This document shows, one piece after another, positions 15,098 through 30,745 of a stretch of 32,000 nucleotides of DNA. The notes beneath the pieces were generated by a model that saw only the letters and a program-made list of their open reading frames with translations, was not told the origin of the DNA and made no database searches. Location of the stretch: the NCBI RefSeq assembly GCF_036323395.1, contig NZ_AP028907.1, forward strand, positions 780,001 to 812,000, written 5' to 3'. Both the position numbers and the translations under genes were made by a program. This stretch comes from Pyrodictium abyssi (lineage in GTDB: Archaea > Thermoproteota > Thermoprotei_A > Sulfolobales > Pyrodictiaceae). Every line of letters begins with the position of its first letter. The stretch's first letter is position 1.

Positions 15098-15099
15098 CC

Positions 15100-15378
15100 T
15101 TGGGGAGGGAGCGACGCCTCATCAGAGTGTTCTTCAACACATACTATGAAGACGTAGCAGAGAACGTGCTGAACGAACTCAAGAGCCTAGGATACGAAAT
15201 GAAGCTGACGAATTCAAGGGTTGTCCCGGAGCTGTATTACGTCGAGATGGAGGTAGGGGCTGAGAACTTAGACCAGGCTGTCGAGAAGGTGCAGAGACTG
15301 CTCGAAGAAGCTAGAGACAGGTATTCGGGCCGTCTATTCGGGGTCAAAGTATACGGTGTTGACGCATCGTCGTCATAG
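15100..15378 (+). CDS. Hypothetical small protein (about 85-92 aa), coupled to the upstream gene
   Basis: ORF begins 2 nt after the stop of the previous gene (TTG at 15100, GTG nine codons later). Balanced, non-repetitive composition. No family recognised. Confidence 0.45.
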   Translation: MGRERRLIRVFFNTYYEDVAENVLNELKSLGYEMKLTNSRVVPELYYVEMEVGAENLDQAVEKVQRLLEEARDRYSGRLFGVKVYGVDASSS

Positions 15379-15380
15379 CG

Positions 15381-15385
15381 TTTTT
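15381..15385 (+). terminator. T5 tract just after the 15100..15378 stop (archaeal oligo-T terminator candidate)
   Basis: cgTTTTTgctcc starts 3 nt after the stop; a second T-rich run ttatttt follows at 15396-15402. Confidence 0.3.
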
Positions 15386-15427
15386 GCTCCAGCGTTATTT
15401 TGCACTTTACCATTATGATGCTGTGTT

Positions 15428-17440: not shown

Positions 17441-18422
17441 CAACTATTTCCTCCTCACCAACACGTTTGTACAGTATTATAGTGGCTGCATCTACCACCT
17501 CGCTGACCGTGACTTGTTGTTTACCTCGTAGCTTGGCTAGTCGGCCAGCTATTCGCGCCCATAGTACCGTGTCTGCTGGGCCTGGCTTATACGCCGCTTT
17601 CTGGCGAAGAATGCTAACTACTTGAATCATTGCTTCTAATATTTTTGAGTCCAACTCGACGTCTATATCATATCTTAGCTTTACTATTTCTGCTTCAACA
17701 TCGGGAGGTGGGTAACTGAAGGGTATCCTTACTACTCTCCTGAGAAATGCGTCGCTTAGCTCACTTTGTGCATAATCTTCGGGATTGCTAGTAAATATTA
17801 CTTGGAATCCTTCGCCTTTTGCACGGAAGACTCTACGGAGTTCTGGGACAATTATACGACGTTTATCTATTATGTCTAGGAGCATGTTTTGGAATTCTTC
17901 GTTGCTTCGTCTTATTTCGTCTACAAGTACTCCTGTATCAAGTATTAGTGCTGCAAGGAGGGGCCGTGGTATGAAGCTTTTCTCGTTAAAGCCGTATCTC
18001 AATGCCATCAGGGGATGGAAATCACCTATAACTCTATATTCATCGTAGTTCTCGCTACAGGGTATTATTAGAGCTGGCTTTCCAGCCCAGAGCGATAGTA
18101 TAGCTTCACCTATCTCGGTCTTTCCTGTACCCGGGGGTCCCTCAAAGAGCACCGGGCGTCCCGCGAGAAATGCTGCCACAACTAATGTGACAAGTTTCCT
18201 GTCAACGAGGAGTTTATACTCTCTTCTCAGAATCTCTATCATTTTGTCTACGCTTCTTACTGGCTTCCTTTTATGCTTCTCTATTACCTCGGCGTAGATA
18301 CTAGCAACTTTCTCCTCAATACTTTCATGCATTTCATCACTATCCTTTTGACTAGGTGAACTGATCATCTCTTCAACTATTTTTTCGACATACTTTTCTT
18401 TATCGACCTTGCTTACGTCCAT
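17403..18422 (-). CDS. MoxR-family AAA+ ATPase
   Basis: Walker A GPPGTGKTE; Walker B and MoxR signature VLVDEIRRSNEEFQNMLLDIIDKRRIIVPE; sensor region FQVIFTSNPED. Confidence 0.85.
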   Translation of the reverse strand: MDVSKVDKEKYVEKIVEEMISSPSQKDSDEMHESIEEKVASIYAEVIEKHKRKPVRSVDKMIEILRREYKLLVDRKLVTLVVAAFLAGRPVLFEGPPGTGKTEIGEAILSLWAGKPALIIPCSENYDEYRVIGDFHPLMALRYGFNEKSFIPRPLLAALILDTGVLVDEIRRSNEEFQNMLLDIIDKRRIIVPELRRVFRAKGEGFQVIFTSNPEDYAQSELSDAFLRRVVRIPFSYPPPDVEAEIVKLRYDIDVELDSKILEAMIQVVSILRQKAAYKPGPADTVLWARIAGRLAKLRGKQQVTVSEVVDAATIILYKRVGEEEIVDETIERVFGLHP

Positions 18423-18614
18423 TTTTGCACCCTTCTGACACCCTAGATTACTGGAGCCAGCTACATTATAGCTGTCTAACCTACAGCAGGTTTGCCACCA
18501 TGAGGGGTGTTGGCCTCGTACACACTTATTAGCCTCACTACAAGCTTATTGTCTACACAGCATTACTTGCTTTAGTACATAGCTAGAGTTGCTAGACTTT
18601 ATGCCGAGGCTGCT

Positions 18615-19097
18615 ATGCGACGAACTACCGGGGTATATAGGGCTATGAGTAGAATACGGCGCAGTAAAGACGACAATATCATTTATAGTGTCTGGATTCG
18701 TAGAGGACCAGATATATTCCATTACGACATAGTCTTTGAAGACGACTGTATAAGGCTTGTGTATCTAGGCGAGTACTGGGAGCGTGTTAGGCCAAAGACT
18801 GGTCTACAGCGACGTGTTGACATGTTTATATACTCCATAAGGAAGCGAAGGGAACGCATTTACGGAGAAGGAGAGAGACCAATGGTTATTAACTACTGCG
18901 ATATATCAAGTTATGAGATTGTTAAGCCTCGCCCTGCTGTATCTCGTGAAGACTTGTCTCCAGGTGCCCTGGAGCTGCTACTGCGTGATGGAAAGCGTAT
19001 TCGTATAGAGTTCTCTCCGAGGGTGTACGAGATCGTGAAGTCAGCTGTAAAGAAGTATGTAAGAAGCGGCATTGAACGGTGTAAAGGTAGGAGATAG
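18615..19097 (+). CDS. Hypothetical protein (about 150-160 aa), divergent from the MoxR gene
   Basis: Intact ORF with balanced composition. Internal ATG at codon 11 fits the ctttatg TATA-like box at about 18597. No family recognised. Confidence 0.45.
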   Translation: MRRTTGVYRAMSRIRRSKDDNIIYSVWIRRGPDIFHYDIVFEDDCIRLVYLGEYWERVRPKTGLQRRVDMFIYSIRKRRERIYGEGERPMVINYCDISSYEIVKPRPAVSREDLSPGALELLLRDGKRIRIEFSPRVYEIVKSAVKKYVRSGIERCKGRR

Positions 19098-19150
19098 TAG
19101 GCGCCGGGCGATGAAGATGGCCCGATAGGCTGAAGAAAGCATATGCCATG

Positions 19151-19726
19151 TCATGATGACGGATCAACCGTCGGAGCCCGGCTATGCTTTTGCTTGATGC
19201 GGATAAACGCGTAGTCCTTTGACGTTTCCCCTATGTATAGTCCGTAGTTTGGGAGTTCGCGTACTATCTTGTGTGCCTTTTTCAGGCTTGTAACTACGGC
19301 ATACAACTTGGTTACACGGTCCATCTCCTTTAATGCTCTTGATTTATCTTCAACAAGATCAACTACTGTGAAGGATACCGTGTAGTTGACGCTCTCGCTG
19401 CGTAGAGGAAGATTCTCGGCGTCAGCCTCGACATGCTCTACCATGTGCGCGAGCCCTAGGCTTGCTGTACGCTTTCTAGCTACGTCGAGCATTCCAGGAG
19501 ATAGGTCTAGGCAGATATAGTACGTTATGCCATCTACTCCATGCGTAGATGCAAGGTATTCCAGAAACAGCCCGGTACCACATCCATTGTCTAGGACTTT
19601 GCCGTGAAGCTTCACGCTACGCATTGCAAGCATGTATTTTTCAAATTGTTCGTCACGGTATAGCTCGTCGTACCCTGAGCTTGTAACATTGTATTTTTCC
19701 CGCATTATTGCCTTCTTTGAGGTCAA
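19151..19726 (-). CDS. Class I SAM-dependent methyltransferase
   Basis: Motif I VLDNGCGTGLFLEYL, post-I CLDLSPGML, acidic motif ADAENLP. The codon at 19726 is TTG; the first ATG is at 19705. Confidence 0.8.
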   Translation of the reverse strand: MTSKKAIMREKYNVTSSGYDELYRDEQFEKYMLAMRSVKLHGKVLDNGCGTGLFLEYLASTHGVDGITYYICLDLSPGMLDVARKRTASLGLAHMVEHVEADAENLPLRSESVNYTVSFTVVDLVEDKSRALKEMDRVTKLYAVVTSLKKAHKIVRELPNYGLYIGETSKDYAFIRIKQKHSRAPTVDPSS

Positions 19727-19874
19727 CTAGCCCCCCTTCGGTACTAGACATGCTCAACCATGAGTTTTTCGAGCACGTACATAGAAGGACGAGCTATAGT
19801 TACCATGTCGCCGGCACAAATCGGTTGCAGAGGCAGGTATAGTTTTGAGAGGTTTAGGTGATAGGTGATGTGGT

Positions 19875-19879
19875 AAAAA
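19875..19879 (-). terminator. T5 tract about 30 nt downstream of the rps19 stop
   Basis: Minus strand reads gtcaTTTTTacc. Consistent with the rpl2-rps19 unit ending here rather than running into rpl22. Confidence 0.3.
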
Positions 19880-19908
19880 TGACTGTAAATTAGAAGGTAT
19901 ACAGTGCT

Positions 19909-20376
19909 CTACTTCAGTGCTACATGTAGGCTGCTCCTTGTGGCCTTGAGGCCGGGCTCTCCATGCTGTACCTGGCGGCATGTTGGGCTGAACTCGCCGA
20001 GGTAGTGGCCTATCATTTCTGGCGTTATGCGCACTGGGACGAACTCCTTACCGTTGTATACGGCTATGGTCATTCCAATCATTTCTGGCAGTATTATCAT
20101 ATCCCTTACATGCGTCTTTACTACTACCTTTTTGCCCTTGAGTATCTTCTGCCGTGCCTTGCGTATCTTCCAGAGTAGGCGGCGCTGCGGGTCTGTTAGA
20201 CCTCTCAGTAGGCTTCTCCTCTGCCTTGCTGGTAGGAGCTTTATGAATATGTCCATTGGCATCGAGAGTAGCTCTTCTAGTGTGTAGCCGCGGTAGCGGA
20301 ACTTCCGCCACTCCGGCGGCAGGGTCTCAAGCCACTTCTTCATTTCCTCATCCAGCTGCGGCTTCACAGCCTGCAT
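19909..20376 (-). CDS. rps19: 30S ribosomal protein S19 (uS19)
   Basis: [14 protein letters not shown]...[44 protein letters not shown]. Confidence 0.93.
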
Positions 20377-20424
20377 ATTCTACACCCCATGTGGGCGAGG
20401 CTAAACACGTATGGGGGTTTAATG

Positions 20425-21141
20425 CTACCTCTTCTTCCGGCCTGTCGAGCGCGCAGCAATATGGCCGACTTTTCTGCCTGGCGGCGCATCTCTGGAGACT
20501 GTTGTTGGGAAGCTTGGGCTCTGGTGGCTGCCACCGCCGTGCGGGTGGTTTACAGCGTTCATGGCTACACCGCGTACACGTGGCCATACATGGGCCTTAG
20601 CCTTCCACTTATAGTATGCTGCACCAGCCTTGAGGAGCGGCTTCTCTAGGCGACCAGCGCCAGCGGCTATACCTATGGTTGCCCTAGCATCGTTTGGTAT
20701 CTCTTTGACTTTTCCGCTGGGGAGCTGTACTATCGTCTTATTACCACTACGGCCCAGTATGACTGCATAGGCGCCCGACGAGCGCGCTAATTTCCCGCCA
20801 TCGCCCGGCCTAATCTCCACATTGTATATCTGCGTACCTTCAGGAATCCTACCGACCGGGAGTATGTTGCCATTGGCGGGCTTCGCGTCCGGCCCAACCT
20901 CTATGATCTGGCCAACATACATGCCCTCAGCCGCTGGTATCCAAAATTCTTCACCGTTCTCCAGCACTACATGAGCGAGTGGAACCCAGCGGCCTGGATC
21001 GTGCACGAGCTCTACTACGCGCCCTCTCAGCGTTACTGGTGTCAGCGGCGGATACTTCGCTGGCGCTGGGTGCAGCCACGGCTTGCTGCGATATACTGGT
21101 GAGCCCTTACCCCTACGCTGTACTATCAAGCGCTTACCCAT
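20425..21141 (-). CDS. rpl2: 50S ribosomal protein L2 (uL2)
   Basis: MGKRLIVQRRGKGSPVYRS...VRGVAMNAVNHPHGGGSHQ. Confidence 0.96.
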   Translation of the reverse strand: MGKRLIVQRRGKGSPVYRSKPWLHPAPAKYPPLTPVTLRGRVVELVHDPGRWVPLAHVVLENGEEFWIPAAEGMYVGQIIEVGPDAKPANGNILPVGRIPEGTQIYNVEIRPGDGGKLARSSGAYAVILGRSGNKTIVQLPSGKVKEIPNDARATIGIAAGAGRLEKPLLKAGAAYYKWKAKAHVWPRVRGVAMNAVNHPHGGGSHQSPSFPTTVSRDAPPGRKVGHIAARSTGRKKR

Positions 21142-22537
21142 AGCGTAGCACCCTTCCCCGGCTGCTCGTCCCCTGTATGCTCGGACTCTTAACTGTTATC
21201 GGTACGGGGAGTATTCTAGCTGGAAAGGCTCTTTGTGACTGCTGGTAACGGATCAATGCCTCACCGACACCAAGCCTGGGAAGATACTCTAAATCCTCAT
21301 AGGCTATTCCACTAAATCTCTTCACATCTTCTAGATAAGTCTCATCAAGAGAACCAAACACTACTACGTTGTTAGAGTTATTCCATACCTCGGGACTAAA
21401 ATCTGCTGGATGTTGTGATAGTAGGACTAGGCTAATGCCACTACTCCTTCCTTCCCTGATAAGTTTTTTCACAACCTCACTATTACTGACTCTCCAGAAT
21501 TCATCTACTATGAGAACAGATCTTGCGTACATACTCTGCAGCATAGAGAATATACTAGCCAATGTAGATTCAAGGTGAATATATTTCTCGTTTTCACTAA
21601 GATATTTTAGGTCAATTATTAGAATATTGCTGAATTTGCTGGTAACCATGCTAGCTAAAAATATGCGTTGATGAGCATGCTCATCTTCCAATAACACGCG
21701 CTCAGCTAGACCAGTCCATGACAAGGTGTCCCACATATCTCCCTTTGGGTCAACAGCAACTACTCTAGCGTCATAGAGTAAAGTAGCCATAATTGCAATA
21801 AGAGCTGCAAGTGTAGTTTTCCCCTTACCCGTGGGACCTACTACTATTGTATGCTTAGCTCCCCTCTCATCCCAGAGAGGAAGTCCAACAACTTTTCCTA
21901 GCAGTAGGTCAAAGCCTATAGGTACAGACTCGCTCCCTAAGTATTCTCCTACTGTATATGGGTATTGCATCCACTCAATACCTTTGCTTACAAGTAGGCT
22001 TCGAGGTTGCACTACATGCTTATTATAGCTTTTTAAAAAATTTGGATCTACGCATTTAAGCCTAGGTTTACAGCCTAGAAGGGAGAACGCGTCTACTATG
22101 CCGTGGTATTCCTCTTCTATAGTCCCAGGCCTCCCACATACAACTATATGTAATGATGGTTCAACTGGATCACCATAGTCTGTTATCTTTCCATAAACTT
22201 CTCTTAGTATTTTTAATTTGGTTTTTGCACGCATGTTGTTTGGATTTCGTTCTAGCTCTACTTCGTAGGAGAGTATCTTTGACTCTATTACTCTGGCAGC
22301 ATAGCTGTTCTTAACAGGTCTGTAAAGTAGGAATATTCCACAAATTTTCCTATCGAGCAGTCTTAGTCTATCGCTTAGAAGCTTTGAGAAACACGACTCA
22401 TCGCCTCTAATTTCTACAATAATGCCCACTAGGTCCGACGCTATATCAAAGGTACAGAGACTGCTAACATGCTTGGGTGTACCTTCTACCACCGCGCGCA
22501 ACCTGTCTATATATTTTGATATACTTTTAATCACCAT
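21134..22537 (-). CDS. VirB4/TrbE-like P-loop ATPase of the HerA/FtsK superfamily (CedB-like), no TM segments
   Basis: Walker A VVGPTGKGKTT, followed by VVAVDPKGDMW. Walker B LIVDEFWRV resembles the DEAW motif of VirB4. About 230-aa N-terminal non-ATPase domain. ATG at 22537 lies 4 nt after the stop of the upstream 53-aa ORF; the track start at 22567 is TTG. The stop overlaps the rpl2 ATG. Confidence 0.7.
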   Translation of the reverse strand: MVIKSISKYIDRLRAVVEGTPKHVSSLCTFDIASDLVGIIVEIRGDESCFSKLLSDRLRLLDRKICGIFLLYRPVKNSYAARVIESKILSYEVELERNPNNMRAKTKLKILREVYGKITDYGDPVEPSLHIVVCGRPGTIEEEYHGIVDAFSLLGCKPRLKCVDPNFLKSYNKHVVQPRSLLVSKGIEWMQYPYTVGEYLGSESVPIGFDLLLGKVVGLPLWDERGAKHTIVVGPTGKGKTTLAALIAIMATLLYDARVVAVDPKGDMWDTLSWTGLAERVLLEDEHAHQRIFLASMVTSKFSNILIIDLKYLSENEKYIHLESTLASIFSMLQSMYARSVLIVDEFWRVSNSEVVKKLIREGRSSGISLVLLSQHPADFSPEVWNNSNNVVVFGSLDETYLEDVKRFSGIAYEDLEYLPRLGVGEALIRYQQSQRAFPARILPVPITVKSPSIQGTSSRGRVLRYG

Positions 22538-22541
22538 ACTA

Positions 22542-22703
22542 TCACCAGTATGCAGTTTTTCTGACAATTACGAACAAGGCTATATTAATCACCGAAAGTA
22601 TCATTAAAATTACATTTTTCGAATCTAATGCATGAATAACACCATATAGGGATAAACCTAGTGCTATGTATAGCGACTTTCTAAGTGTTAGAGTTACTTG
22701 CAT
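22542..22703 (-). CDS. Small two-TM membrane peptide, 53 aa (CedA2-like by size, topology and position)
   Basis: Manual translation: MQVTLTLRKSLYIALGLSLYGVIHALDSKNVILMILSVINIALFVIVRKTAYW. A ggtg SD lies about 9 nt upstream. Stop TGA at 22542 sits 4 nt before the ATPase ATG. Missed by the ORF track (<60 aa). Confidence 0.45.
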   Translation of the reverse strand: MQVTLTLRKSLYIALGLSLYGVIHALDSKNVILMILSVINIALFVIVRKTAYW

Positions 22704-22730
22704 CACTAAACACCATAGCTAATGTTCTGA

Positions 22731-24182
22731 TTAATCAAATATGATACGAGGAGACGATGCGCCCAGAACTCTAGCGAGATTTATAGATACCATGGACATT
22801 ATTGTCAAGTACGAGAATACTGTTATTGGAAATGCTGTGCCATAGACTATGTAGTACACTATCGCATCCTCAGTTGTCATATTAGGATATGTGACTCCCT
22901 CGCTTAGTTCTAGCTTGTAGATACTCGAAATACTATAGTAGTCTATGTTTTTAGTGAATCTCATATCTATTTTATCTACTCCATTTGGAATTTTTAAGCT
23001 GAGTATCTTTGTATAAACCTTTACGCCTCTCCAGGGAGTCGTCAGTTCCAACATTCTATATTCTTCAAAGAATACACTGTCTGGAGAAATCATTTCAATG
23101 TCGTTCTTGCCTAGCGATGATATTGTTATCATTATCCAGTCTGACATAGGTTCACATGTTACGTCTAGAATATTATCAGTCTGATATACTTTAGTTATCT
23201 TACATCCACTTATAATTAGTAGGCCTACTGGCTCTACAAATATAGCATCTTCTTCTACTGTTATGTCTAGACGGTACTCGGCTTCATCAAGTTCGTATGT
23301 AAGTTTAGCGTCTTCGGGTACCTTGACTGTCGGCCTGGATGCTCCTAGGATGTGGGCAAGGTATTCTACTTCTACACGGTAATCTCCGCTTGGCAGCATT
23401 TTTAGTGGCTTAGTTACATAGTATCCTCCATCCTCGTGAATAACGAATCTAAAAGACCCACCACTGTTTACGTCAATGAAACGAACCAGTCCTGCTAACG
23501 GCTGGTGTCCATATGCATCCTTGACCACTCCCCATAGGTGAATAGGCTCTCTACTCTCATTGGCACTGATGTATGTGCTAAGATACCCCGTAGCCAGGCT
23601 TTCATATATCATTGTTATCCAGTGCGGCAGGAATGGCAGCATTATATTACTGGCTATCACGAATGCGAGAAGTGAAGCACCAGCATTCCTGCCTATTCTA
23701 AAGGGTATAGCTATAAGAGCTATTGATAGAGCTGTTAGCTTTGCTTTTGCTGTTGAGATTATACTAGCTATTACTATGACTGTTGCTGCTGCAGTAAGCA
23801 TACCATAGTGCACTAATACCATTGGGAGCACGTATATGCTGAAGAACTTACCTATTATACTGTGTACACTTGCGAGTATTCCTACTAATAGTCGCGTTAT
23901 ATACTCCATTAGTATTATAGCTTTCATTCGAATCTGCATATATGATATTATGTCGTTTATACTGTATCCACTTAGGCTCGCTATAGCATCAGCAAACTTC
24001 AGTAGAGCAACATAGAGTGTGATTAGTATGCTAACCCACAGACTGTCTTGTATGAGTGTCGGCGCCCAGCGCTTTACACTACGCAAAGGTATGGGAAGCA
24101 TGTACACTAGCACTCCTATATAGTATGTTAGTACTGCTAGCTGTGCTGCAATCAGCAAGAAATACTGCGGAAGCGTCATCAT
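22731..24182 (-). CDS. Polytopic membrane protein (>=6 N-terminal TM helices, beta-rich ectodomain, C-terminal TM); CedA/VirB6-like candidate
   Basis: Residues 1-200 are nearly continuous hydrophobic helices. Residues about 215-290 (WGVVKDAYGHQPLAGLVRFID...DGGYYV...LPSGDYRVEVEY) resemble a carboxypeptidase-regulatory/prealbumin-like beta sandwich. Terminal hydrophobic helix AIVYYIVYGTAFPITVFSYLTIMSMV. Confidence 0.55.
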   Translation of the reverse strand: MMTLPQYFLLIAAQLAVLTYYIGVLVYMLPIPLRSVKRWAPTLIQDSLWVSILITLYVALLKFADAIASLSGYSINDIISYMQIRMKAIILMEYITRLLVGILASVHSIIGKFFSIYVLPMVLVHYGMLTAAATVIVIASIISTAKAKLTALSIALIAIPFRIGRNAGASLLAFVIASNIMLPFLPHWITMIYESLATGYLSTYISANESREPIHLWGVVKDAYGHQPLAGLVRFIDVNSGGSFRFVIHEDGGYYVTKPLKMLPSGDYRVEVEYLAHILGASRPTVKVPEDAKLTYELDEAEYRLDITVEEDAIFVEPVGLLIISGCKITKVYQTDNILDVTCEPMSDWIMITISSLGKNDIEMISPDSVFFEEYRMLELTTPWRGVKVYTKILSLKIPNGVDKIDMRFTKNIDYYSISSIYKLELSEGVTYPNMTTEDAIVYYIVYGTAFPITVFSYLTIMSMVSINLARVLGASSPRIIFD

Positions 24183-24188
24183 ATATTT

Positions 24189-24194
24189 ACCTCC
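24189..24194 (-). promoter_or_regulatory. Shine-Dalgarno GGAGGT between the pilin-like gene stop and the polytopic-protein ATG
   Basis: Minus strand reads TAA GGAGGT AAATAT ATGATG. The 12-nt spacer argues for translational coupling. Confidence 0.5.
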
Positions 24195-24476
24195 TTAACC
24201 TGTAATGTTGTACATTACTGGCGGTGGAGAAGCCACTGAACTGACTATGTAGGATACTAGCGCGAATATAGAGGAGCCCAGGGCTAGCCAGAATGCAGCC
24301 CATATGGCATCTTCTATAAGGTCTTGCCCTGCTCTCTTCACCCTCATGAAGGGTACAGGAGATCCTTTTAGTAGCCATCCAACACTCCACGTGAGTAGGA
24401 ATAAGCCCCATGCTATACTCATGACCTTTATGGTTAACGTGTTTATGAATTCTACTACGCTCACGTCTCCCCTCAA
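24195..24476 (-). CDS. Small two-helix membrane protein, VirB2/TrbC/CedA1 pilin-like topology
   Basis: Hydrophobic helix VMSIAWGLFLLTWSVGWLL, basic loop KGSPVPFMRVKRAGQD, hydrophobic helix AIWAAFWLALGSSIFALVSYIV. Start ambiguous: TTG at 24476, GTG at codon 5 or ATG at codon 19. Confidence 0.5.
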   Translation of the reverse strand: MRGDVSVVEFINTLTIKVMSIAWGLFLLTWSVGWLLKGSPVPFMRVKRAGQDLIEDAIWAAFWLALGSSIFALVSYIVSSVASPPPVMYNITG

Positions 24477-24637
24477 AACACGCTACTAGTTGTACGGAAG
24501 CCGTTGAGCCGCAGTTAGCCGTAACTACTCTATTACCGCTACATAGCGACACCGTTTAACTCACATCATATAGGTACAATATTAGTAAATCTTATTAGAT
24601 GTCTTAGTAAGATATCATAAAGTTAGTTATTCAGGCT

Positions 24638-27505
24638 TTATTTTCGTTTTTCGAGCTTATGCTTGTATTTATGATAATTTACCTCTGCCTCTATGAGAGC
24701 TCTGTAAAACGCCTCTTCGCCAAACACAAGTTTTTGCAGAACCCGCTTTGCTGTATACGTGCCGATGCCCGTTGATACAAGGGCTTCTACAGCCTTTTTG
24801 CCGTAACTCAGTACGAGATTAGCAGCATCCATGACTTCGCGAACAGCCTTTCTCTCTGCCTGGGAGAGTTTGGCTCCACGTCTCTGTTTCTCGATTAATG
24901 CCCTAGCTGCTTCTATGCGCTCTTTGGCTAAGGCAGGATATATCATTCGTGCACCGCAGCGCGGACACTCTATATTATTGCTGTTAACGTGTAGTAGCTT
25001 TCTTGTCCATATCTTTCCACACATCAGGCAGAGAAATATCACGTCTTTTGACGCTATCCTACGTTTTATTGCTTCAACAAGTATTGTCGACGGTAGACCA
25101 TCCGTCGTTACGCGGTCCCCGAATCGTGCTTCTGCTATAGCGTCCTCTGTGATAGGCGACGGTGTTTTCAAACTTACAGCCTTTACTTCTATCCTACCAG
25201 TCCTTATTTCCTCGAGGAACTTGTGCAGAACGTATGTATCCACCTTTCTTACACTTATTTCTCTGTATGCTTCCTCTCCGAGTATAGTGTCCCTCAGCTT
25301 ATGGATAATCGTCTTCACATGTCTTATGTCTGTATTGGCTGTTCTCTTTACCGCTCCGCTTCGAAGAGCTACATAGAGCATTATCCACTGGAATAGTTTG
25401 CTCTTAAGGACAGCTCTACGCAGTAGCGAATCCACCTCATTACTAGGTAGGCTAGTTATTTTCCGCAGTACATCGGCTATGAAGTCGGCGCGTTCTACTG
25501 AAGCGAGTCTTATAGCTACAATATAGGGTGTGCTTGCTGTTACAGGTGGATAACCCTTTACTTCGGATATATAAGCCGAGATCAGATATTCTAGTGCCTT
25601 GTTGCCGCGGCTACCAAGGAAACTGTATATAATGAATACATCGCCATAGTGCTCGATAACTACTCTCCTATCGGTTGGAAGAGGAAGACCCTTCGACATA
25701 TGCTTTAATATTTTATTTTGCACTAATTTTCTAGAATTATCGTCAAGTGGGTATTCGCTTAGCACTTTTTCGCCCTGTTTTTCGTACCTGCGGAGTATAC
25801 TGCCAATCTCGCGGGCAACATTATACTCTACGGGGATTAAGTCACCCTCCCATGCCGGAGGTATGAGCTTGTCTTCTTTTGTGTGCCTAACTCTCACACT
25901 GTCATCTGCAATATCTACTACCTCCCAAACCTGCCCTCCTAGTACGAATTTGGCCCCTTGTTCTAGTGTCGTAACGAACTCTTCGTCTAGGACGCCGAGT
26001 TTCCTTCCTGTACCTACTTCGTAGACATTGTACTGCTTCGTATCGGGTATCATTGTGACGCTGAAGTAGTAGCTCTTAGCCATGGGACCCATACTGATTT
26101 TTCTGTCCCTGACTCTTGCTATTCTGGATGCCTCCATGTAGCTTATCACTTGGTATAGCTCGTCTAAGCTTAGGTCCTTATAGTAGCCGCTGCACGTTAC
26201 AATACTGTAGATGGTGTCTATGTCTATTTCGCCTAGCTCTATGAGCATACCGGTAATCTGGTGTATAAGTGCATCATATGGTTTGATAGGATACTGTAGT
26301 CTTTCTAAGTTGCCTCGCATCGCTCTAGCAGCTATAACAGCAGACTCCAGTATATCGAATATGTTTGTGGCTGCTACTATTATGCCCCTAGATATGCCAC
26401 CTATTCTGTGCCCGGATCTGCCTACACGCTGAACTAGTTTCACTACTTGTCTAGGAGACATGTACTGTACTACAAGGTCTATTGCGCCTACGTCGATACC
26501 TAGTTCCAGACTAGATGTAGCTACAACTGCCTTCACTTTGCCGCTTCGAAGTCTTTGTTCAGCATCTACACGCTTTTCGCGGCTTAGACTGCCATGATGT
26601 ACCTCTATTCTGTCCTCGCCCATAGCTTGTTTCAGCAATGCACCTAAGACTTCCGCTGTATCGCGCGTGTTAACGAATATTATCGAGTTGCCAGGATTCT
26701 CCGACACTACTTTCTTTATTAGCTCCACTCTAGCCAGTGTTTCTCTCTGGGACTTTAGCCCATCATCCCTATTGCTACCACTGCTATGAATTGCTGGGGC
26801 GACGACAGTTATGTGGTAGCGCTTTACGGCTTTCTCTGTCTCAACTATTCGGACGTATCTATCGCCCATGAGTAGCCTAGCCACTGTATATGGATCACTA
26901 ACTGTAGCAGATAGTCCTATAATTTGGAGTCTATTTCTCGTATATAGTCGTGCTACGCGTTCAATAGCCAGGGATAGCTCTGCTCCACGCTTGCCTGAAA
27001 CAAGCTCGTGTACCTCGTCCACAACTATGTACTTAAGATTGCTGATATTTTGGCGGAATTTTTCCACGCTCAATAGGAAATAGAATGACTCGGGTGTAGT
27101 CACCATTACGTGGGGAGGGTTTTCAAGGAACCGCCTTTTCTCGGCCGCAGTACTATCTCCATGTCTGACCTCTAGTGTAAGCCTTACATCTGAAGCTATA
27201 TTTATCATGCGCTTAAATATATCACGGTTAAGACTACGCAAGGGCGTTATATATACAGCATAGATGCCTTTTGACTTAGAGCCTATAAGCCTTGAGAATA
27301 TGGGGAGAAGTGCGGCCTCAGTCTTACCACTACCAGTGGGAGCGATAGCCAGTACATGGTTTCCTCGAAGAACCTCGGGTATCACCTTGCTTTGTATCTC
27401 CGTCGGTCTTGTATAGCCATACCTTAACAGTACATGTTGGAGTAGCGGGTGAAGTAGTCTAAACACCCCACTTACGATGCGTCTTTCATTGCGCTGCGCC
27501 GCCAT
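24638..27505 (-). CDS. lhr: Lhr-family (large helicase-related) DEVH-box SF2 helicase with C-terminal zinc ribbon
   Basis: Motif I APTGSGKTEAA, II VVDEVHEL, III LSATV, VI VQRVGRSGHR. Long Lhr-type C-terminal extension. CLMCGKIW...CPRCGARM zinc ribbon and a GIGTYTAKRVL HhH-like element. Confidence 0.88.
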   Translation of the reverse strand: MAAQRNERRIVSGVFRLLHPLLQHVLLRYGYTRPTEIQSKVIPEVLRGNHVLAIAPTGSGKTEAALLPIFSRLIGSKSKGIYAVYITPLRSLNRDIFKRMINIASDVRLTLEVRHGDSTAAEKRRFLENPPHVMVTTPESFYFLLSVEKFRQNISNLKYIVVDEVHELVSGKRGAELSLAIERVARLYTRNRLQIIGLSATVSDPYTVARLLMGDRYVRIVETEKAVKRYHITVVAPAIHSSGSNRDDGLKSQRETLARVELIKKVVSENPGNSIIFVNTRDTAEVLGALLKQAMGEDRIEVHHGSLSREKRVDAEQRLRSGKVKAVVATSSLELGIDVGAIDLVVQYMSPRQVVKLVQRVGRSGHRIGGISRGIIVAATNIFDILESAVIAARAMRGNLERLQYPIKPYDALIHQITGMLIELGEIDIDTIYSIVTCSGYYKDLSLDELYQVISYMEASRIARVRDRKISMGPMAKSYYFSVTMIPDTKQYNVYEVGTGRKLGVLDEEFVTTLEQGAKFVLGGQVWEVVDIADDSVRVRHTKEDKLIPPAWEGDLIPVEYNVAREIGSILRRYEKQGEKVLSEYPLDDNSRKLVQNKILKHMSKGLPLPTDRRVVIEHYGDVFIIYSFLGSRGNKALEYLISAYISEVKGYPPVTASTPYIVAIRLASVERADFIADVLRKITSLPSNEVDSLLRRAVLKSKLFQWIMLYVALRSGAVKRTANTDIRHVKTIIHKLRDTILGEEAYREISVRKVDTYVLHKFLEEIRTGRIEVKAVSLKTPSPITEDAIAEARFGDRVTTDGLPSTILVEAIKRRIASKDVIFLCLMCGKIWTRKLLHVNSNNIECPRCGARMIYPALAKERIEAARALIEKQRRGAKLSQAERKAVREVMDAANLVLSYGKKAVEALVSTGIGTYTAKRVLQKLVFGEEAFYRALIEAEVNYHKYKHKLEKRK

Positions 27506-27565
27506 AGTATACTATTTCACCCTTGATTCCAGCCCTTCTACGCTATAAATCTGGGGCACCAGATT
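27506..27565. promoter_or_regulatory. Divergent promoter region between lhr and the membrane HerA-like ATPase
   Basis: 60-nt spacer with two AT-rich boxes: tatactattt at 27509-27518 and tataaat at 27544-27550 (atttatag on the other strand). Confidence 0.4.
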
Positions 27566-29452
27566 TTGGGCGGACCGGCCACTAGCTTATTTACTCGTCT
27601 ACTACTATTAGCCGTACTATCATCCCTAACTGTGGTGCTGATTGTCTGGGGCAATCAAGCAGATTACTTAGTAGCAACGACCGCTGTAGCGGCAATCATG
27701 GCCTTAGTATCCAAGTCGCTGGTAATTGCCGCGATAGCTGTTATCTATAATATTCTGCTAGGACTTTATTCTGCCCTGCTACCGCTCCCAGCATTTCTAC
27801 ACAACATGTCATCGGTCACAGTAGTGTACCCTAAGCTAAGCTACACCGTCCTAGCTATACTAGTGGCAATACTAGTCTCCGGCACTATACTTGTTGCTAG
27901 AATGTTCTCGCTCCTACGCTCCAGACCCTTCGTCGACACATTTCTGAGAAACCTTATGTACACACTAGCAAGGGACACGATAAGGTACAGTCTATGCTCT
28001 ACAAGAAGGCGTGCAGCTCTATCACTGTTACTCTCGTCTGTCATAGTTTACTATATTCTGCTATACACTTATCCGCCTCGCTACATCAACGATATGCTGT
28101 ACTACCTGCTACTCTCTGCATCCCTATTGCTTACAATACCCGCTATGATAGTGTCATCGTTTGATAAATCTGCTGCAGCTGCTCTCGTACCAGTACTCGC
28201 AGCTGCAGTAGTGCTACCTCAGCCATTGCTGCTAGCAGCGTTAGTATCAGTAATTCCAGCCGAGACGCTACACTCAACATTAAGAATTGCACTACGCGAC
28301 GGCTACAGGATAGGTAGCCTCGACGCAATCCTAGTATACATGCCGACTATTAGGTACAATATAGCCGGATCAGTAACTATTAGTGCTACACGTACCTGGT
28401 GGTCACCAGCTTACCCCCCGGTAGAGTACAGGGTCAAGACCAGTATAGATGAGAACCCGCACATACTCGTAACCGGGACCACCGGCTCCGGGAAATCATT
28501 TACAGCAATGAAGCTCGCCGCCTCAATCCTGGAGGAGAAGCAGAAGCGTAACGGACCAATACTAGTCGTTATAGATCCTCACGGCGAGTATGCGGATATG
28601 TTCCGCGGAAAACCAGGCATAAAGATAGTAGACGCATCCGAGGAGGCACCAAACCCTCTAGAGCTTGTAGGGCAAAGCCCTCGCGAAAGAACTCTAGAGC
28701 TCGTAGAGCTGGTGTCGGAATTCTACAGGCTAGGCCCTATTCAGTCACGAATACTAGAAGAGGCCATCTTGCTATCATACGAGAATGCTGGTATAAGAGA
28801 CGACGACCCCTTATCGTGGAGTAACCCGCCACCAACAATTAGAGACGTTGTCAGGATCCTTGAAGACATGTCCAAGCGAGACCCGCGTGCCAGTGTATTA
28901 GCTATGTATATCTCGTCTCTTGCATCTAAGGCTTTCAGCAAGAGCCGGCACGTGTCATTTCCCGTACCAGGAGCCGGCACACATGCAGTAATCTTCGACC
29001 TTTCAAGACTATCCACAAGAGAACAAATGGTTCTATACACAGAAACCATACTGTATAAGTTATACTACCTTGTTAAGAAACTGGGCCCTTCTAGTGATCT
29101 GCGTTATATACTTCTAATAGACGAGGCACATTTATTCGCCCGTAAGACCTCAAGGAGGCGTCAAATCATATCCCTTATAGCGGCCGAGCTGCGGAAGTAC
29201 GGCGTCATGCTGATAGTTGTTACACAGAAGGCCAGCGAACTCGACAAGACTATAATAGCAAATATCGGCACATTTATATGCTTAAAACACACTGACTCCA
29301 ACGAGTCAAAGTTCATGGCAGAGACTGTATCACGCAACCCTGTGGACGATTCCAGGGACGCACTCGCATACACCATTGCAACACTACCTAAAGGATACAT
29401 AGTCGTAGGGGACGTAGGGCTAGACACACCCCTCCTAGTCAGGCTTGGATAG
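27566..29452 (+). CDS. Membrane-anchored HerA-like (DUF87/COG0433-type) ATPase with a 6-7 TM N-terminal domain
   Basis: Residues 1-230 are hydrophobic helices. Walker A LVTGTTGSGKSF, VVIDPHGEYADMF (DPxGEY), Walker B LLIDEAHLFA and VVTQKASELD are typical of HerA/DUF87. Start uncertain (TTG at 27566). Confidence 0.8.
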   Translation: MGGPATSLFTRLLLLAVLSSLTVVLIVWGNQADYLVATTAVAAIMALVSKSLVIAAIAVIYNILLGLYSALLPLPAFLHNMSSVTVVYPKLSYTVLAILVAILVSGTILVARMFSLLRSRPFVDTFLRNLMYTLARDTIRYSLCSTRRRAALSLLLSSVIVYYILLYTYPPRYINDMLYYLLLSASLLLTIPAMIVSSFDKSAAAALVPVLAAAVVLPQPLLLAALVSVIPAETLHSTLRIALRDGYRIGSLDAILVYMPTIRYNIAGSVTISATRTWWSPAYPPVEYRVKTSIDENPHILVTGTTGSGKSFTAMKLAASILEEKQKRNGPILVVIDPHGEYADMFRGKPGIKIVDASEEAPNPLELVGQSPRERTLELVELVSEFYRLGPIQSRILEEAILLSYENAGIRDDDPLSWSNPPPTIRDVVRILEDMSKRDPRASVLAMYISSLASKAFSKSRHVSFPVPGAGTHAVIFDLSRLSTREQMVLYTETILYKLYYLVKKLGPSSDLRYILLIDEAHLFARKTSRRRQIISLIAAELRKYGVMLIVVTQKASELDKTIIANIGTFICLKHTDSNESKFMAETVSRNPVDDSRDALAYTIATLPKGYIVVGDVGLDTPLLVRLG

Positions 29453-29556
29453 GGTGGCCACCACCTACACAATAAGGAGGCGTGAAGAGTATAACTAGGG
29501 TAAGGATTTTTGCTGAAACGAAAACAGGGGGAGAAACTGCTAGGGTGGAGCGCGGC

Positions 29557-29790
29557 ATGTCGGAGGAGGAAGCCATTATCGAAGAGGAGGTCACGCCAGT
29601 AGCGGCAGAGGAGGGAGACGAAACAGAGGAAGTCATAGACCTTAACGCCGCCCTGCTAGAGGCTATGGTGAAACGTACAGAGATACTAGAAAGGTTCGCA
29701 AAAGGCGAGGTAAACGAGGTAGAGGCCGGTAATCTCCTCGAAACTGTGAAGGTACCTTCACTAGAAAGAAGGCGTAGGAGGAAACGCTAG
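29557..29790 (+). CDS. rpo13: Rpo13-like protein (crenarchaeal RNA polymerase subunit 13 candidate), 77 aa
   Basis: Acidic N-terminus (MSEEEAIIEEEVTPVAAEEGDETEE), a central helix-turn-helix-like core (LNAALLEAMVKRTEILERFAKGEVNEVEAGNLLE) and a poly-basic tail RRRRRKR. This is the architecture I recall for Sulfolobus Rpo13. ATG at 29557 with a ggtgg SD; the track start at 29482 is GTG. Confidence 0.45.
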   Translation: MSEEEAIIEEEVTPVAAEEGDETEEVIDLNAALLEAMVKRTEILERFAKGEVNEVEAGNLLETVKVPSLERRRRRKR

Positions 29791-29795
29791 GCTTG

Positions 29796-30176: not shown

Positions 30177-30467
30177 GGCGTAACCCTCCAAGGCATCCCT
30201 CTGTATATGCACCATGCATACAAACACTTTACAGTAACGCCACCACATAGGACGGGCGGCTTCATCCCTCGTGCCAGCCTACAAAACGGGGCCCTTCACC
30301 TGTATACATGTGCCCCGCCGCGATTACTGAACACTCATCGGTCAGCCGTTATACCGGGCAGCATGTCTCTAGGTTCATAAACTCTAACCGCTATAGCGAG
30401 GGGCGGCACCATTCATGGTTTTATAGCTAAAAACTCCGGCTCACTACCAGGGAGTAGGGTAGATACC

Positions 30468-30716: not shown

Positions 30717-30745
30717 GCCGGTGTCTGCTAGAGTACAAGCTCTCC

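What the first reader, a model, noticed from the sequence alone, without database searches (positions are those of the whole stretch)
21134..24476. AT-rich four-gene operon with Ced / type-IV-secretion-like architecture: pilin-like, polytopic membrane, 2-TM peptide, VirB4-like ATPase
Seen in the sequence:
- Four minus-strand genes separated by only 12, 27 and 4 nt, with GGAGGT and GGTG ribosome-binding sites.
- (i) A 93-aa protein with two hydrophobic helices joined by a basic loop, which is VirB2/TrbC pilin topology.
- (ii) A 483-aa protein with at least 6 TM helices.
- (iii) A 53-aa two-TM peptide absent from the ORF track.
- (iv) A soluble P-loop ATPase with GPTGKGKT, DPKGD and a DEFW Walker B, as in VirB4/TrbE.

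Established knowledge: this list and order match the crenarchaeal Ced DNA-import system (CedA1, CedA, CedA2, CedB). That system is related to bacterial conjugation machinery (VirB2/VirB6/VirB4).

Inference: the locus encodes a DNA-transfer pilus apparatus. Its sequences, its ectodomain and its genomic context may still represent an undescribed variant.
Basis: partly seen in the sequence, partly recalled or inferred. Interest (0 to 1): 0.8.

Follow-up and report, generated by a model that had tools for sequence, protein, structure and literature searches.

The report
Ced DNA-import pilus operon, Pyrodictium

Summary
The four tightly packed minus-strand genes exist as described. They are the Ced (crenarchaeal exchange of DNA) system: CedA1 pilin, CedA channel protein, a small two-helix CedA2-position peptide and the CedB ATPase.

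- **CedA1:** it passes NCBI's CedA1 equivalog cut-off and matches the solved Aeropyrum pernix Ced pilin (PDB 8DFU, E=7e-25).
- **CedA:** its first 190 residues match the CedA model.
- **CedB:** it matches the CedB model, and its predicted fold is closest to R388 VirB4.
- **Source:** the proteins are identical to Pyrodictium abyssi proteins. RefSeq already names the pilin 'DNA import protein CedA1', and a 2025 paper reports CedA1 homologues in all Pyrodictiaceae. The core finding is therefore already known.

Four incremental points go beyond that:

1. The 53-aa ORF is unannotated but real. Its dN/dS is about 0.18, and an ORF of this kind sits at the same position in 16 of the 19 genome-scan loci where it could be checked.
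2. CedA carries a 225-residue tandem beta-sandwich ectodomain. This long form is the common one outside Sulfolobales.
3. An Lhr helicase and a membrane-anchored HerA-type ATPase (candidate CedD) are conserved neighbours.
4. cedB overlaps rpl2 by 8 nt.

The locus is not a mobile element.

The parts
24195..24464 (-). cedA1: VirB2-like Ced pilin, 89 aa from GTG 24464 (alternative TTG 24476 gives 93 aa). Two helices are joined by the basic loop MRVKRAGQD. The C-terminal tail carries an N-I-T sequon.
   Evidence: NCBIfam NF041797 CedA1 equivalog scores 129.5 bits against a cut-off of 100. PDB 8dfu_B pilin matches at E=7e-25 over residues 6-77. The protein is 100% identical to WP_338252306.1, 'DNA import protein CedA1 [Pyrodictium abyssi]'. 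18 columns are invariant across 13 Desulfurococcales orthologues.
22731..24182 (-). cedA: VirB6-like polytopic channel protein, 483 aa. It has an N-terminal CedA1-like hairpin (aa 1-70), a further helical membrane core (aa 71-210), an ectodomain (aa 211-436) and a C-terminal membrane helix (aa 437-472).
   Evidence: NCBIfam NF041796 CedA hits at E=7.3e-36 on residues 6-194 (model positions 5-193 of 259). The score of 124 bits is below the 330-bit equivalog cut-off. The CedA1 model and the 8DFU pilin also hit residues 9-68. The AF2 model has mean pLDDT 82.5. The protein is identical to BES81321.1, PABY_08880, 'hypothetical protein'.
22875..23552 (-). Ectodomain of CedA (aa 211-436): two beta-sandwich domains, D1 (aa 211-302, carboxypeptidase-regulatory-like) and D2 (aa 303-436). 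It is inserted between the sixth helix and the last membrane helix and is absent from the 246-300-aa Sulfolobales CedA.
   Evidence: AF2 predicts strands from 216 to 431. Pfam CarboxypepD_reg gives only a weak hit, E=0.1. Foldseek against PDB finds nothing below E=0.009, only weak tandem Ig-like ectodomains and Gram-positive pilins/adhesins. D2 is the fastest-evolving part: 17-27% identity in family-level relatives, against 50-59% for the N-terminal hairpin. Extracellular placement is inferred from the positive-inside rule.
22542..22703 (-). CedA2-position small ORF, 53 aa. It is a two-helix membrane hairpin with a DSKN loop, a conserved Asn in helix 2 and basic ends. It is unannotated in the public genome.
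   Evidence: dN/dS is 0.17-0.19 against the 94%- and 79%-identical orthologues in the annotated frame, and 0.44-2.0 in the shifted frames. A 53-69-aa hydrophobic ORF sits between cedA and cedB in 16 of 19 loci. The same is seen in the close relatives L027-L030 and in H. butylicus (60 aa). A 52-aa ORF follows cedA in a Sulfolobales genome. The exact sequence is not in the protein collection.
21134..22537 (-). cedB: soluble VirB4/HerA-like ATPase of the FtsK-HerA superfamily, 467 aa. Walker A is GPTGKGKT and Walker B is VDEFW.
   Evidence: NCBIfam NF041017 CedB hits at E=2.6e-23, 82.5 bits, below the 700-bit cut-off. Pfam AAA_10 and TrwB_AAD_bind score above their cut-offs. The Foldseek top hits are R388 TrwK/VirB4, followed by HerA. 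The sequence profile against PDB gives HerA 1.7e-14 and VirB4 1.6e-7. No N-terminal membrane helix was found. The protein is identical to BES81320.1/WP_338252302.1.
24465..24637 (-). AT-rich 173-nt intergenic region upstream of cedA1. It is the presumed promoter and 5' leader of the ced operon, with TATA-like runs near 24610, 24575 and 24558.
   Evidence: This rests on reading the sequence only. It is an inference, because no archaeal promoter tool was available. The bacterial sigma-70 scan was at background level.
24638..27505 (-). Lhr-type DEAD/DEAH DNA helicase, 955 aa, immediately upstream on the same strand. It is a conserved neighbour of the ced operon in Desulfurococcales and only a possible accessory.
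   Evidence: NCBIfam PRK13767 hits at E=1.8e-137 and the ligase-associated DEXH helicase model at E=7.7e-118. Pfam WHD_Lhr and DEAD_assoc are present in the orthologues. Lhr lies upstream of cedA1 in 12 of the 26 genome-scan loci, in the four close relatives L027-L030 and in H. butylicus. It is absent from that position in the Sulfolobales locus.
27566..29452 (+). Membrane-anchored HerA/FtsK-type ATPase, 628 aa, with an N-terminal polytopic membrane domain of about 230 aa. It is divergently transcribed from lhr and is a candidate CedD.
   Evidence: The best NCBIfam hit is CedD, E=3.3e-16 and 59 bits, far below the 600-bit cut-off. HerA scores 52 bits and CedB 39 bits. Pfam DUF87 (64 bits) and TrwB_AAD_bind (35.6 bits) are above their cut-offs. 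Hydrophobic stretches cover residues 5-233. The gene is conserved, divergent from lhr or upstream of the ced genes, in 13 loci and in H. butylicus.
20425..21141 (-). rpl2 (ribosomal protein L2), followed by rps19. Its start codon overlaps the end of cedB by 8 nt, and it has its own GGGTG ribosome-binding site.
   Evidence: ORF coordinates come and the sequence. The same overlap or tight linkage occurs in L027, L028 and L030. The gap is 34-83 nt in H. butylicus and other Pyrodictiaceae.

Best explanation
The locus is the chromosomal Ced system of Pyrodictium abyssi. Ced is a domesticated archaeal relative of the bacterial type IV secretion / conjugation apparatus that takes up DNA from neighbouring cells.

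The following mechanism is inferred from work on Sulfolobus and Aeropyrum pernix. None of it was tested here.

- CedA1 (VirB2-like) is inserted into the membrane as a helical hairpin. It is extracted and polymerised, together with lipid, into a hollow pilus.
- CedA (VirB6-like, seven membrane helices) forms the membrane platform and channel at the pilus base. Its N-terminal hairpin is homologous to the pilin. Its two beta-sandwich domains project outside the cell, where they could form a collar in the space beneath the S-layer or contact a partner cell.
- CedB, a soluble hexameric VirB4/HerA-type ATPase, powers assembly and/or DNA translocation at the cytoplasmic face.
- The 53-aa two-helix peptide is the CedA2 counterpart. 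It is either a minor pilin or a small membrane partner that docks the soluble CedB.
- The neighbouring membrane-anchored HerA-type ATPase is probably CedD, the second ATPase needed for import in Sulfolobales.
- The adjacent Lhr helicase may process incoming DNA for recombinational repair.
For: **Homology of the parts**
- CedA1 exceeds the NCBIfam equivalog cut-off (129.5 bits against 100).
- CedA1 aligns with the cryo-EM Ced pilin 8DFU at E=7e-25. PMC11823120 identifies 8DFU as A. pernix CedA1.
- CedA residues 6-194 match the CedA model at E=7e-36.
- The N-terminus of CedA also matches CedA1 and the 8DFU pilin. PMC9905601 describes this relationship for Ced.
- CedB matches the CedB model at E=2.6e-23.
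- The CedB AF2 model best matches R388 VirB4, then HerA.

**Gene order and conservation**
- The order cedA1-cedA-small ORF-cedB recurs in Desulfurococcales genomes and in H. butylicus.
- The order cedA1-cedA-small ORF recurs in a Sulfolobales genome.
- The small ORF is under purifying selection.

**Identity and context**
- The proteins are identical to P. abyssi proteins, and RefSeq names the pilin 'DNA import protein CedA1'.
- PMC12518558 reports CedA1 homologues in all Pyrodictiaceae.
- The locus is chromosomal: about 20 kb of flanking synteny is shared with H. butylicus.
- The window contains no tRNA.
- CedA and CedA1 have no plasmid or phage homologues. CedB has only marginal hits to a plasmid ATPase motif.
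Against: - CedA and CedB score far below NCBI's equivalog cut-offs (124 of 330 bits and 82.5 of 700 bits). Those models are built mainly on the shorter, membrane-anchored Sulfolobales proteins.
- The small peptide shows only weak similarity to the Sulfolobales CedA2-position peptide (hhalign E=0.0027, probability 11%). It shows none to CedA1.
- The CedD assignment rests on a 59-bit hit that barely exceeds the HerA hit.
- The CedB model is of moderate quality (pLDDT 70.5), and its VirB4 superpositions have high rmsd.
- No functional data exist for any Pyrodictiaceae Ced system. DNA import, its direction and its regulation are all extrapolated.
Confidence: 0.9

Rival explanations
1. The genes belong to an integrated conjugative plasmid or element. 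They would export that element's own DNA, as classical conjugation does, rather than form a domesticated chromosomal import system.
For: - The components are homologous to VirB2, VirB6 and VirB4.
- The operon is markedly more AT-rich than its flanks, which can mark foreign DNA.
Against: - The same gene order, flanked by lhr on one side and rpl2-rps19 on the other, is found in four Pyrodictiaceae-type genome-scan loci (L001-L004), the close relatives L027-L030 and H. butylicus. Most of it recurs across Desulfurococcales.
- The AT-rich dip is shared by H. butylicus and L030, so it is old and follows the genes.
- The window has no tRNA, and none of the neighbouring ORFs scanned against NCBIfam matched an integrase or relaxase.
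- CedA and CedA1 have no homologues in 72,556 plasmids or 50,697 phage records.
- cedB overlaps an essential ribosomal protein gene.
Confidence: 0.03
2. The apparatus builds a CedA1 pilus used mainly for adhesion, biofilm formation or cell-cell contact. Alternatively it moves DNA outward or in both directions, rather than acting as a dedicated DNA importer.
For: - DNA transfer through a Ced pilus has not been shown directly in any Desulfurococcales species. PMC9905601 shows only the pilus structure.
- In S. islandicus, CedA1 and CedE also affect export (bioRxiv 10.1101/2024.09.27.615246).
- CedA here carries a rapidly evolving surface ectodomain whose weak structural matches include Ig-like receptors and Gram-positive pilins/adhesins.
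Against: - Orthology to Sulfolobus CedA, CedA1 and CedB, which are genetically required for import (PMC11823120).
- A conserved neighbourhood containing two DNA-handling ATPases, Lhr and the CedD candidate.
- The hollow, lipid-lined lumen of the orthologous A. pernix pilus (PMC9905601).
Confidence: 0.1
3. The 53-aa ORF is a chance open frame in an intergenic spacer, and the system has only three genes here.
For: - The ORF is not annotated in the P. abyssi records or in the gene calls of L027-L029.
- PMC9905601 states that CedA2 is not conserved among Ced systems.
- No family model matches it, apart from a sub-threshold DUF2759 hit.
Against: - dN/dS is 0.17-0.19 in frame and 0.44-2.0 out of frame.
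- The length, two-helix topology, polar loop and basic ends are retained at 48% identity in L030 and in 16 of 19 more distant loci.
- It is annotated in H. butylicus (60 aa) and in L030 (49 aa).
- It has a GGTG ribosome-binding site and a 4-nt junction with cedB.
Confidence: 0.04

Closest known systems
Ced system of Aeropyrum pernix (CedA1 pilus, PDB 8DFU; Beltran et al. 2023, PMC9905601)
   Same: - Both are Desulfurococcales.
- The pilins align over the whole structured region at E=7e-25, including the basic loop and both helices.
- Neither pilin has a cleavable signal peptide region.
- Both systems are chromosomal.
   Different: - It is a different family (Pyrodictiaceae).
- The A. pernix locus could not be fetched, so its CedA length and small ORF could not be compared.
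- The papers read either do not find CedA2 in A. pernix or describe it as not conserved. Here a CedA2-position ORF is clearly present.
Ced system of Sulfolobales (S. acidocaldarius Saci_0567-0569 and Saci_0748; van Wolferen et al. 2016, cited through PMC11823120)
   Same: - The same four components are present.
- The cedA1-cedA-small ORF order is the same in a Sulfolobales genome (Ca. Aramenus).
- CedA1 is 50-60% identical.
- The small ORF is the same size (52 against 53 aa) and has a similar S/T-K-N loop.
   Different: - Sulfolobales CedA is 246-300 aa and lacks the 225-residue beta-sandwich ectodomain.
- Sulfolobales CedB is membrane-anchored and encoded elsewhere. Here CedB is soluble and lies in the operon.
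- There is no Lhr or CedD-like neighbour in the Sulfolobales locus.
- UV induction and Ups pili are Sulfolobales features and were not testable here.
Bacterial type IV secretion / conjugation inner-membrane complex (R388 TrwK/VirB4, TrwI/VirB6, VirB2 pilin, TrwM/VirB3; PDB 7O41, 8RTB)
   Same: - The CedB model best matches TrwK/VirB4 (E=2e-19).
- The pilin plus polytopic protein plus ATPase logic is the same.
- A small membrane protein is encoded directly before the ATPase gene, as virB3 is before virB4.
   Different: - CedA and CedA1 show no detectable sequence similarity to VirB6 or VirB2 with the tools used.
- No homologues of VirB5, VirB7-VirB11, VirD4 or a relaxase were seen among the ORFs examined.
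- The system is chromosomal and, in Sulfolobus, works in the import direction.
- By sequence profile CedB is nearer HerA than VirB4.
Ted system of Thermoproteales (TedC/TedA/TedB; PMC9905601)
   Same: It has the same architecture of pilin, VirB6-like channel and VirB4-like ATPase. HerA-like and other DNA-repair genes lie in its neighbourhood.
   Different: According to PMC9905601, Ted proteins share no recognisable sequence similarity with Ced proteins, and TedC has a cleaved signal peptide. The proteins here match the Ced models directly.

Membership tests
Ced system (crenarchaeal exchange of DNA) | CedA1: a small two-helix VirB2-like pilin without a signal peptide | tested here: met
   NCBIfam CedA1 equivalog scores 129.5 bits against a cut-off of 100. 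The 8DFU pilin matches at E=7e-25. RefSeq gives this name to the identical protein.
Ced system (crenarchaeal exchange of DNA) | CedA: a polytopic (6-7 helix) membrane protein whose N-terminus is homologous to CedA1, encoded next to cedA1 | tested here: met
   The CedA model hits residues 6-194 at E=7e-36. The CedA1 model and the 8DFU pilin hit residues 9-68. The precomputed Pfam family PF27251 (CedA1) is listed for all homologues. The gene lies 12 nt downstream of cedA1. The score is below the equivalog cut-off (124 of 330 bits) because only the first 190 residues are shared with the 259-position model.
Ced system (crenarchaeal exchange of DNA) | CedB: a VirB4/HerA-like ATPase of the FtsK-HerA superfamily | tested here: met
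   The CedB model is the best NCBIfam hit, at E=2.6e-23. The Foldseek top hits are VirB4, then HerA. Walker A and B motifs are invariant. The score is below the equivalog cut-off (82.5 of 700 bits). The protein lacks the N-terminal membrane anchor of Sulfolobus CedB, which PMC11823120 reports as variable among organisms.
Ced system (crenarchaeal exchange of DNA) | CedA2: a second small two-helix membrane protein encoded next to cedA | tested here: inconclusive
   Position, size, topology and a polar S/T-K-N loop agree with the 52-aa ORF after cedA in a Sulfolobales genome. Sequence similarity is weak (hhalign E=0.0027, probability 11%), and no CedA2 model exists in the libraries searched.
Ced system (crenarchaeal exchange of DNA) | Chromosomal and vertically inherited, not carried on a mobile element | tested here: met
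   Synteny is conserved with H. butylicus and many Desulfurococcales MAGs. The window has no tRNA. CedA and CedA1 have no plasmid or phage homologues.
Ced system (crenarchaeal exchange of DNA) | CedD: a second, membrane-bound HerA/VirD4-like ATPase that co-occurs with CedB | tested here: inconclusive
   The 628-aa ATPase at 27566-29452 has CedD as its best NCBIfam hit, but at 59 bits against a cut-off of 600, with HerA at 52 bits. It has a large membrane domain and a TrwB_AAD_bind hit. It is a conserved neighbour of the operon.
Ced system (crenarchaeal exchange of DNA) | Function: import of DNA from other cells; induction by DNA damage in Sulfolobales | not testable with these tools
   This needs genetics or expression data, and none exists for Pyrodictiaceae in the papers read.
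Bacterial VirB/D4-type T4SS | Sequence membership of the VirB4_CagE/TrbE, VirB6/TrbL and VirB2/TrbC families | tested here: not met
   VirB4_CagE scores 27.7 bits against a cut-off of 643, and the TrbE models score below 20 bits. The 93-aa and 483-aa proteins have no Pfam hit at all. The relationship is seen only at fold level or by profile-profile comparison in the literature (PMC9905601).

The most novel reading that the evidence does not exclude
The unannotated 53-aa two-helix ORF belongs to a small protein that is near-universal in Ced operons but routinely missed by annotation. The published view is that CedA2 is not conserved.

On this reading it works as a VirB3-like membrane tether for the VirB4-like ATPase CedB, rather than as a second pilin. 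Four observations fit this, and none proves it:

- It is always encoded directly before cedB, overlapping or a few nucleotides away.
- It shows no profile similarity to CedA1.
- Every locus whose CedB lacks a membrane helix has the small ORF.
- In the three loci that lack the small ORF, CedB has its own N-terminal membrane helix.

A related open reading concerns the fast-evolving outer beta-sandwich domain of CedA. It could supply partner recognition in lineages that lack Ups pili.
Probability: 0.25. Interest if true: 0.45.

Novelty: already known. Interest (0 to 1): 0.2.

Why it matters
Ced is the only chromosomally encoded, conjugation-like machine known to import DNA, and it is thought to help hyperthermophiles repair their genomes. 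Confirming the locus here adds nothing fundamental. The system is published, the pilin is already named in this genome, and CedA1 homologues in Pyrodictiaceae have been reported.

The practical value is in annotation and hypotheses:

- In P. abyssi, CedA is still labelled 'hypothetical protein', CedB carries a generic T4SS name, and the small ORF is not annotated at all.
- The comparative data suggest that the 'optional' CedA2 is in fact widely conserved.
- The common CedA outside Sulfolobales carries a large surface ectodomain that is not mentioned in the papers read.
- An Lhr helicase and a probable CedD sit next to the operon across Desulfurococcales, which gives concrete candidates for the unknown DNA-processing steps.

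Tried and rejected
- **Pfam-A scan of the four proteins:** nothing for CedA1 or CedA, because the local copy lacks PF27251. NCBIfam was needed instead.
- **Foldseek of the full CedA model against PDB:** no match below E=0.009 and no VirB6 match. The VirB6 relationship therefore rests on the literature.
- **Profile of CedA against PDB sequences:** only the 8DFU pilin matched, on the N-terminal hairpin.
- **hhalign of the small-peptide profile against the CedA1 profile:** no similarity. I rejected the idea that the 53-aa ORF is a detectable CedA1 paralogue.
- **Giant repeat proteins hit by the CedA profile (P0115, P0162):** Pfam showed a mix of unrelated repeat families. I treated these as motif-level hits to beta-sandwich repeats and did not use them.
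- **Bacterial promoter/terminator scan:** at background level and not applicable to an archaeon.
- **Exact look-ups of window CedA and of P0187 for encoding contigs:** nothing found. The source organism was identified through cluster look-up instead.
- **Papers and supplements:** van Wolferen 2016 (PMC4780597) is not held, and the supplements of PMC11823120 are not held. The published lists of CedD and CedA2 orthologues could not be checked.
- **A. pernix locus:** it could not be retrieved.
- **Horizontal transfer as the cause of the AT-rich dip:** rejected, because the dip is shared by H. butylicus and L030.
- **Fisher test on small-ORF presence against a CedB membrane helix:** about p=0.05 by my own calculation from the counts. 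The loci are not phylogenetically independent, so this is only suggestive.

Full report
**1.

The six-frame ORF list and the sequence itself show four consecutive minus-strand genes:
- 24476/24464-24195 (93 or 89 aa);
- 24182-22731 (483 aa);
- 22703-22542 (53 aa);
- 22537-21134 (467 aa).

The ATPase motifs GPTGKGKT, DPKGD and DEFW are present, and all three are largely invariant among homologues.

A hydropathy scan and an AlphaFold2 model give the following topologies:
- The 93-aa protein has two hydrophobic helices.
- In the 53-aa peptide the scan flags the second helix; the first helix is read from the sequence.
- The 483-aa protein has six N-terminal helices plus one C-terminal helix.
- The ATPase has no N-terminal membrane helix.

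The operon is AT-rich, with GC of 0.33-0.42 against 0.51 for the window and 0.58 for the adjacent rpl2.

**2. What the genes are**

*Pilin (CedA1).* Against NCBIfam the 93-aa protein exceeds the curated cut-off of the CedA1 equivalog (129.5 against 100 bits). It aligns with the pilin of PDB 8DFU at E=7e-25 over residues 6-77. PMC11823120 identifies 8DFU as the A. pernix CedA1 pilus, and Beltran et al. 2023 (PMC9905601) describe that pilus.

*Channel protein (CedA).* Residues 6-194 of the 483-aa protein match the CedA model at E=7e-36. Its first about 60 residues also match CedA1 and the 8DFU pilin. PMC9905601 describes this same CedA/CedA1 relationship.

*ATPase (CedB).* Its best NCBIfam hit is CedB (E=2.6e-23). 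An AF2 model (pLDDT 70.5) has R388 TrwK/VirB4 as nine of its top eleven PDB matches (E=2e-19 to 1.6e-13), followed by Sulfolobus HerA. By sequence profile HerA is nearer than VirB4 (1.7e-14 against 1.6e-7). This agrees with the published description of CedB as a HerA-clade ATPase with a VirB4-like N-domain (bioRxiv 10.1101/2024.09.27.615246).

*Model cut-offs.* CedA and CedB fall well below NCBI's equivalog cut-offs. Those models represent the short CedA and the membrane-anchored CedB of Sulfolobales.

**3. Source and prior knowledge**

The 89-aa pilin is 100% identical to WP_338252306.1, 'DNA import protein CedA1 [Pyrodictium abyssi]'. The other exact matches are as follows:
- CedA is BES81321.1 (PABY_08880, 'hypothetical protein').
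- CedB is BES81320.1, named in RefSeq 'type IV secretory system conjugative DNA transfer family protein'.
- The helicase is a P. abyssi DEAD/DEAH helicase.

A 2025 paper on P. abyssi cannulae states that CedA1 homologues occur in all Pyrodictiaceae and speaks of a conserved endogenous Ced import machinery (PMC12518558). The core interpretation is therefore correct and already known.

**4. The 53-aa ORF is a real gene**

Its exact sequence is absent from the 15-billion-protein collection, while its neighbours are present. It is also uncalled in three close relatives.

Against orthologues that are 94% and 79% identical, dN/dS is 0.19 and 0.17 in the proposed frame. In the two shifted frames it is 0.44-2.0.

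At 48% identity (L030) the peptide keeps four features:
- the basic N-terminus;
- the first helix;
- a polar S-K-N loop;
- a second helix with a conserved Asn, followed by a basic end.

A 53-69-aa hydrophobic ORF lies between cedA and cedB in 16 of the 19 genome-scan loci where the interval could be read. It usually overlaps or abuts both neighbours. H. butylicus has an annotated 60-aa version. A Sulfolobales genome (Ca. Aramenus) has a 52-aa ORF directly after its 261-aa cedA, with an S-T-K-N loop.

Sequence similarity between these peptides is weak (hhalign E=0.0027), and the peptide shows none to CedA1. I therefore call it the CedA2 counterpart by position, size and topology, not by demonstrated homology. 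This runs against statements that CedA2 is not conserved (PMC9905601).

**5. The CedA ectodomain**

The AF2 model (pLDDT 82.5) shows three parts:
- helices up to residue 208;
- two beta-sandwich domains (216-300 and 307-431);
- a final membrane helix (437-472).

The positive-inside rule places the sandwiches outside the cell; this is an inference. Pfam gives only a weak CarboxypepD_reg hit (E=0.1). Foldseek finds only weak tandem Ig-like matches.

An exhaustive profile search of 1.84 billion representatives found 211 relatives. Most of the best 150 are 445-515 aa and align end to end. The proteins of 246-300 aa are a minority, and the one checked that carries an organism name (P0061, 261 aa) is from a Sulfolobales (Ca. 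Aramenus). The long form is thus the common one, not a local oddity, although the Ced papers I could read describe CedA only as a 6-7-helix protein. The outer domain, D2, evolves fastest: 17-27% identity against 50-59% for the N-terminal hairpin.

**6. Context**

Upstream on the same strand is a 955-aa Lhr-type helicase. Divergent from it is a 628-aa ATPase with an N-terminal membrane domain of about 230 aa. The ATPase has DUF87 and TrwB_AAD_bind domains, and its best NCBIfam hit is CedD (59 bits; cut-off 600; HerA 52 bits).

Both genes accompany the ced operon in many Desulfurococcales loci and in H. butylicus, but not in the Sulfolobales locus. CedD was recently shown to be essential for import in Sulfolobales and reported to co-occur with CedB in Desulfurococcales (PMC11823120; bioRxiv 10.1101/2024.09.27.615246). 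The 628-aa protein is therefore a reasonable but unproven CedD candidate. None of the Ced papers in the library mentions Lhr.

Downstream, rpl2 starts 8 nt before the cedB stop and has its own ribosome-binding site. The tight cedB-rpl2-rps19 linkage is shared across Pyrodictiaceae.

**7. Not a mobile element**

- About 20 kb of flanking gene order is shared with H. butylicus.
- The window has no tRNA.
- CedA and CedA1 have no homologues among plasmid or phage records. CedB has only marginal ATPase-motif hits.
- The AT-rich dip is also seen in H. butylicus and L030. It is an old, gene-linked property, plausibly reflecting low expression and membrane-protein composition.

**8. Mechanism (inferred from the Sulfolobus and A. 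pernix work)**

CedA1 hairpins are drawn from the membrane and polymerised with lipid into a hollow pilus on a CedA platform. CedB, and probably the CedD candidate, energise assembly and DNA passage. Imported DNA serves recombinational repair.

Two lineage-specific questions remain open.

*What holds the soluble CedB at the membrane?* Among 22 loci, including the window, the pattern is as follows:

| Small ORF | CedB membrane helix | Loci |
|---|---|---|
| present | absent | 13 |
| present | present | 6 |
| absent | present | 3 |
| absent | absent | 0 |

This is compatible with the small peptide acting like VirB3 does for VirB4. It is only suggestive, because the loci are related.

*What does the CedA ectodomain do?* It could form a collar at the pilus base, or recognise a partner cell.

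**9. Verdict**

Novelty is low: the system is known and partly annotated in this very genome. The residual interest lies in the conserved unannotated small ORF, the widespread CedA ectodomain and the Lhr/CedD-candidate neighbourhood.

Noticed in passing
window 24638-27505 (-); also L001-L003, L005, L009, L011-L013, L016, L020, L021, L024, L027-L030, L032: A 955-aa Lhr-type DNA helicase sits immediately upstream of cedA1 on the same strand. It accompanies the ced operon across many Desulfurococcales genomes but not in the Sulfolobales locus examined. No Ced paper in the library mentions Lhr. It may process imported DNA.
   Followed up: partly
window 27566-29452 (+): This 628-aa ATPase has an N-terminal polytopic membrane domain of about 230 aa and a HerA/DUF87 plus TrwB_AAD_bind ATPase domain. 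It is divergent from lhr and conserved next to the ced locus. Its best NCBIfam hit is CedD (59 bits, far below the cut-off), so it is a candidate for the recently described second Ced ATPase.
   Followed up: partly
window 21134-21141 (-): The rpl2 start codon lies 8 nt inside the end of cedB and has its own GGGTG ribosome-binding site. GC jumps from 0.42 to 0.58 at the junction. rpl2-rps19 are detached from the rest of the r-protein cluster: rpl3 lies about 7 kb away in the relatives. This suggests transcripts running from cedB into essential ribosomal genes, or a promoter inside cedB.
   Followed up: partly
window 24195-24210 (-), C-terminal tail of CedA1; alignment A4: The C-terminal tail of CedA1 ends in an N-x-T sequon (NIT here; NVT or NAT in L001, L002 and L030). 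This is a possible N-glycosylation site on the pilus surface. PMC9905601 reported diffuse density on the A. pernix pilus that would be consistent with glycosylation.
   Followed up: no
window 1-14000 versus 15000-32000: The first 14 kb of the window, which is densely packed with minus-strand ORFs that were not scanned, has 54-58% GC. The rest of the window has 44-50% GC.
   Followed up: no
window 15428-18422 (-): An AAA_5 (MoxR/GvpN-like) ATPase of 339 aa is followed by a 671-aa VWA_CoxE-domain protein. The pair is conserved in the same position in H. butylicus and in close relatives. Its function is unknown and it appears unrelated to Ced.
   Followed up: no
L031 1-4988 (Ca. Aramenus, Sulfolobales): In this Sulfolobales genome the cedA1-cedA-small ORF operon also abuts a ribosomal-protein cluster, though a different part of it (S5-L30-L15-SecY-adk-L34e-cmk). 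Linkage of ced genes to r-protein clusters may therefore be ancient.
   Followed up: no
L004, L022, L023 (cedB 5' ends): In the three loci without a separate small ORF, CedB begins with a single hydrophobic helix. In five other loci (L005, L007, L011, L016, L024) CedB has two N-terminal helices and the small ORF is also present. The membrane anchoring of CedB is therefore evolutionarily fluid.
   Followed up: partly
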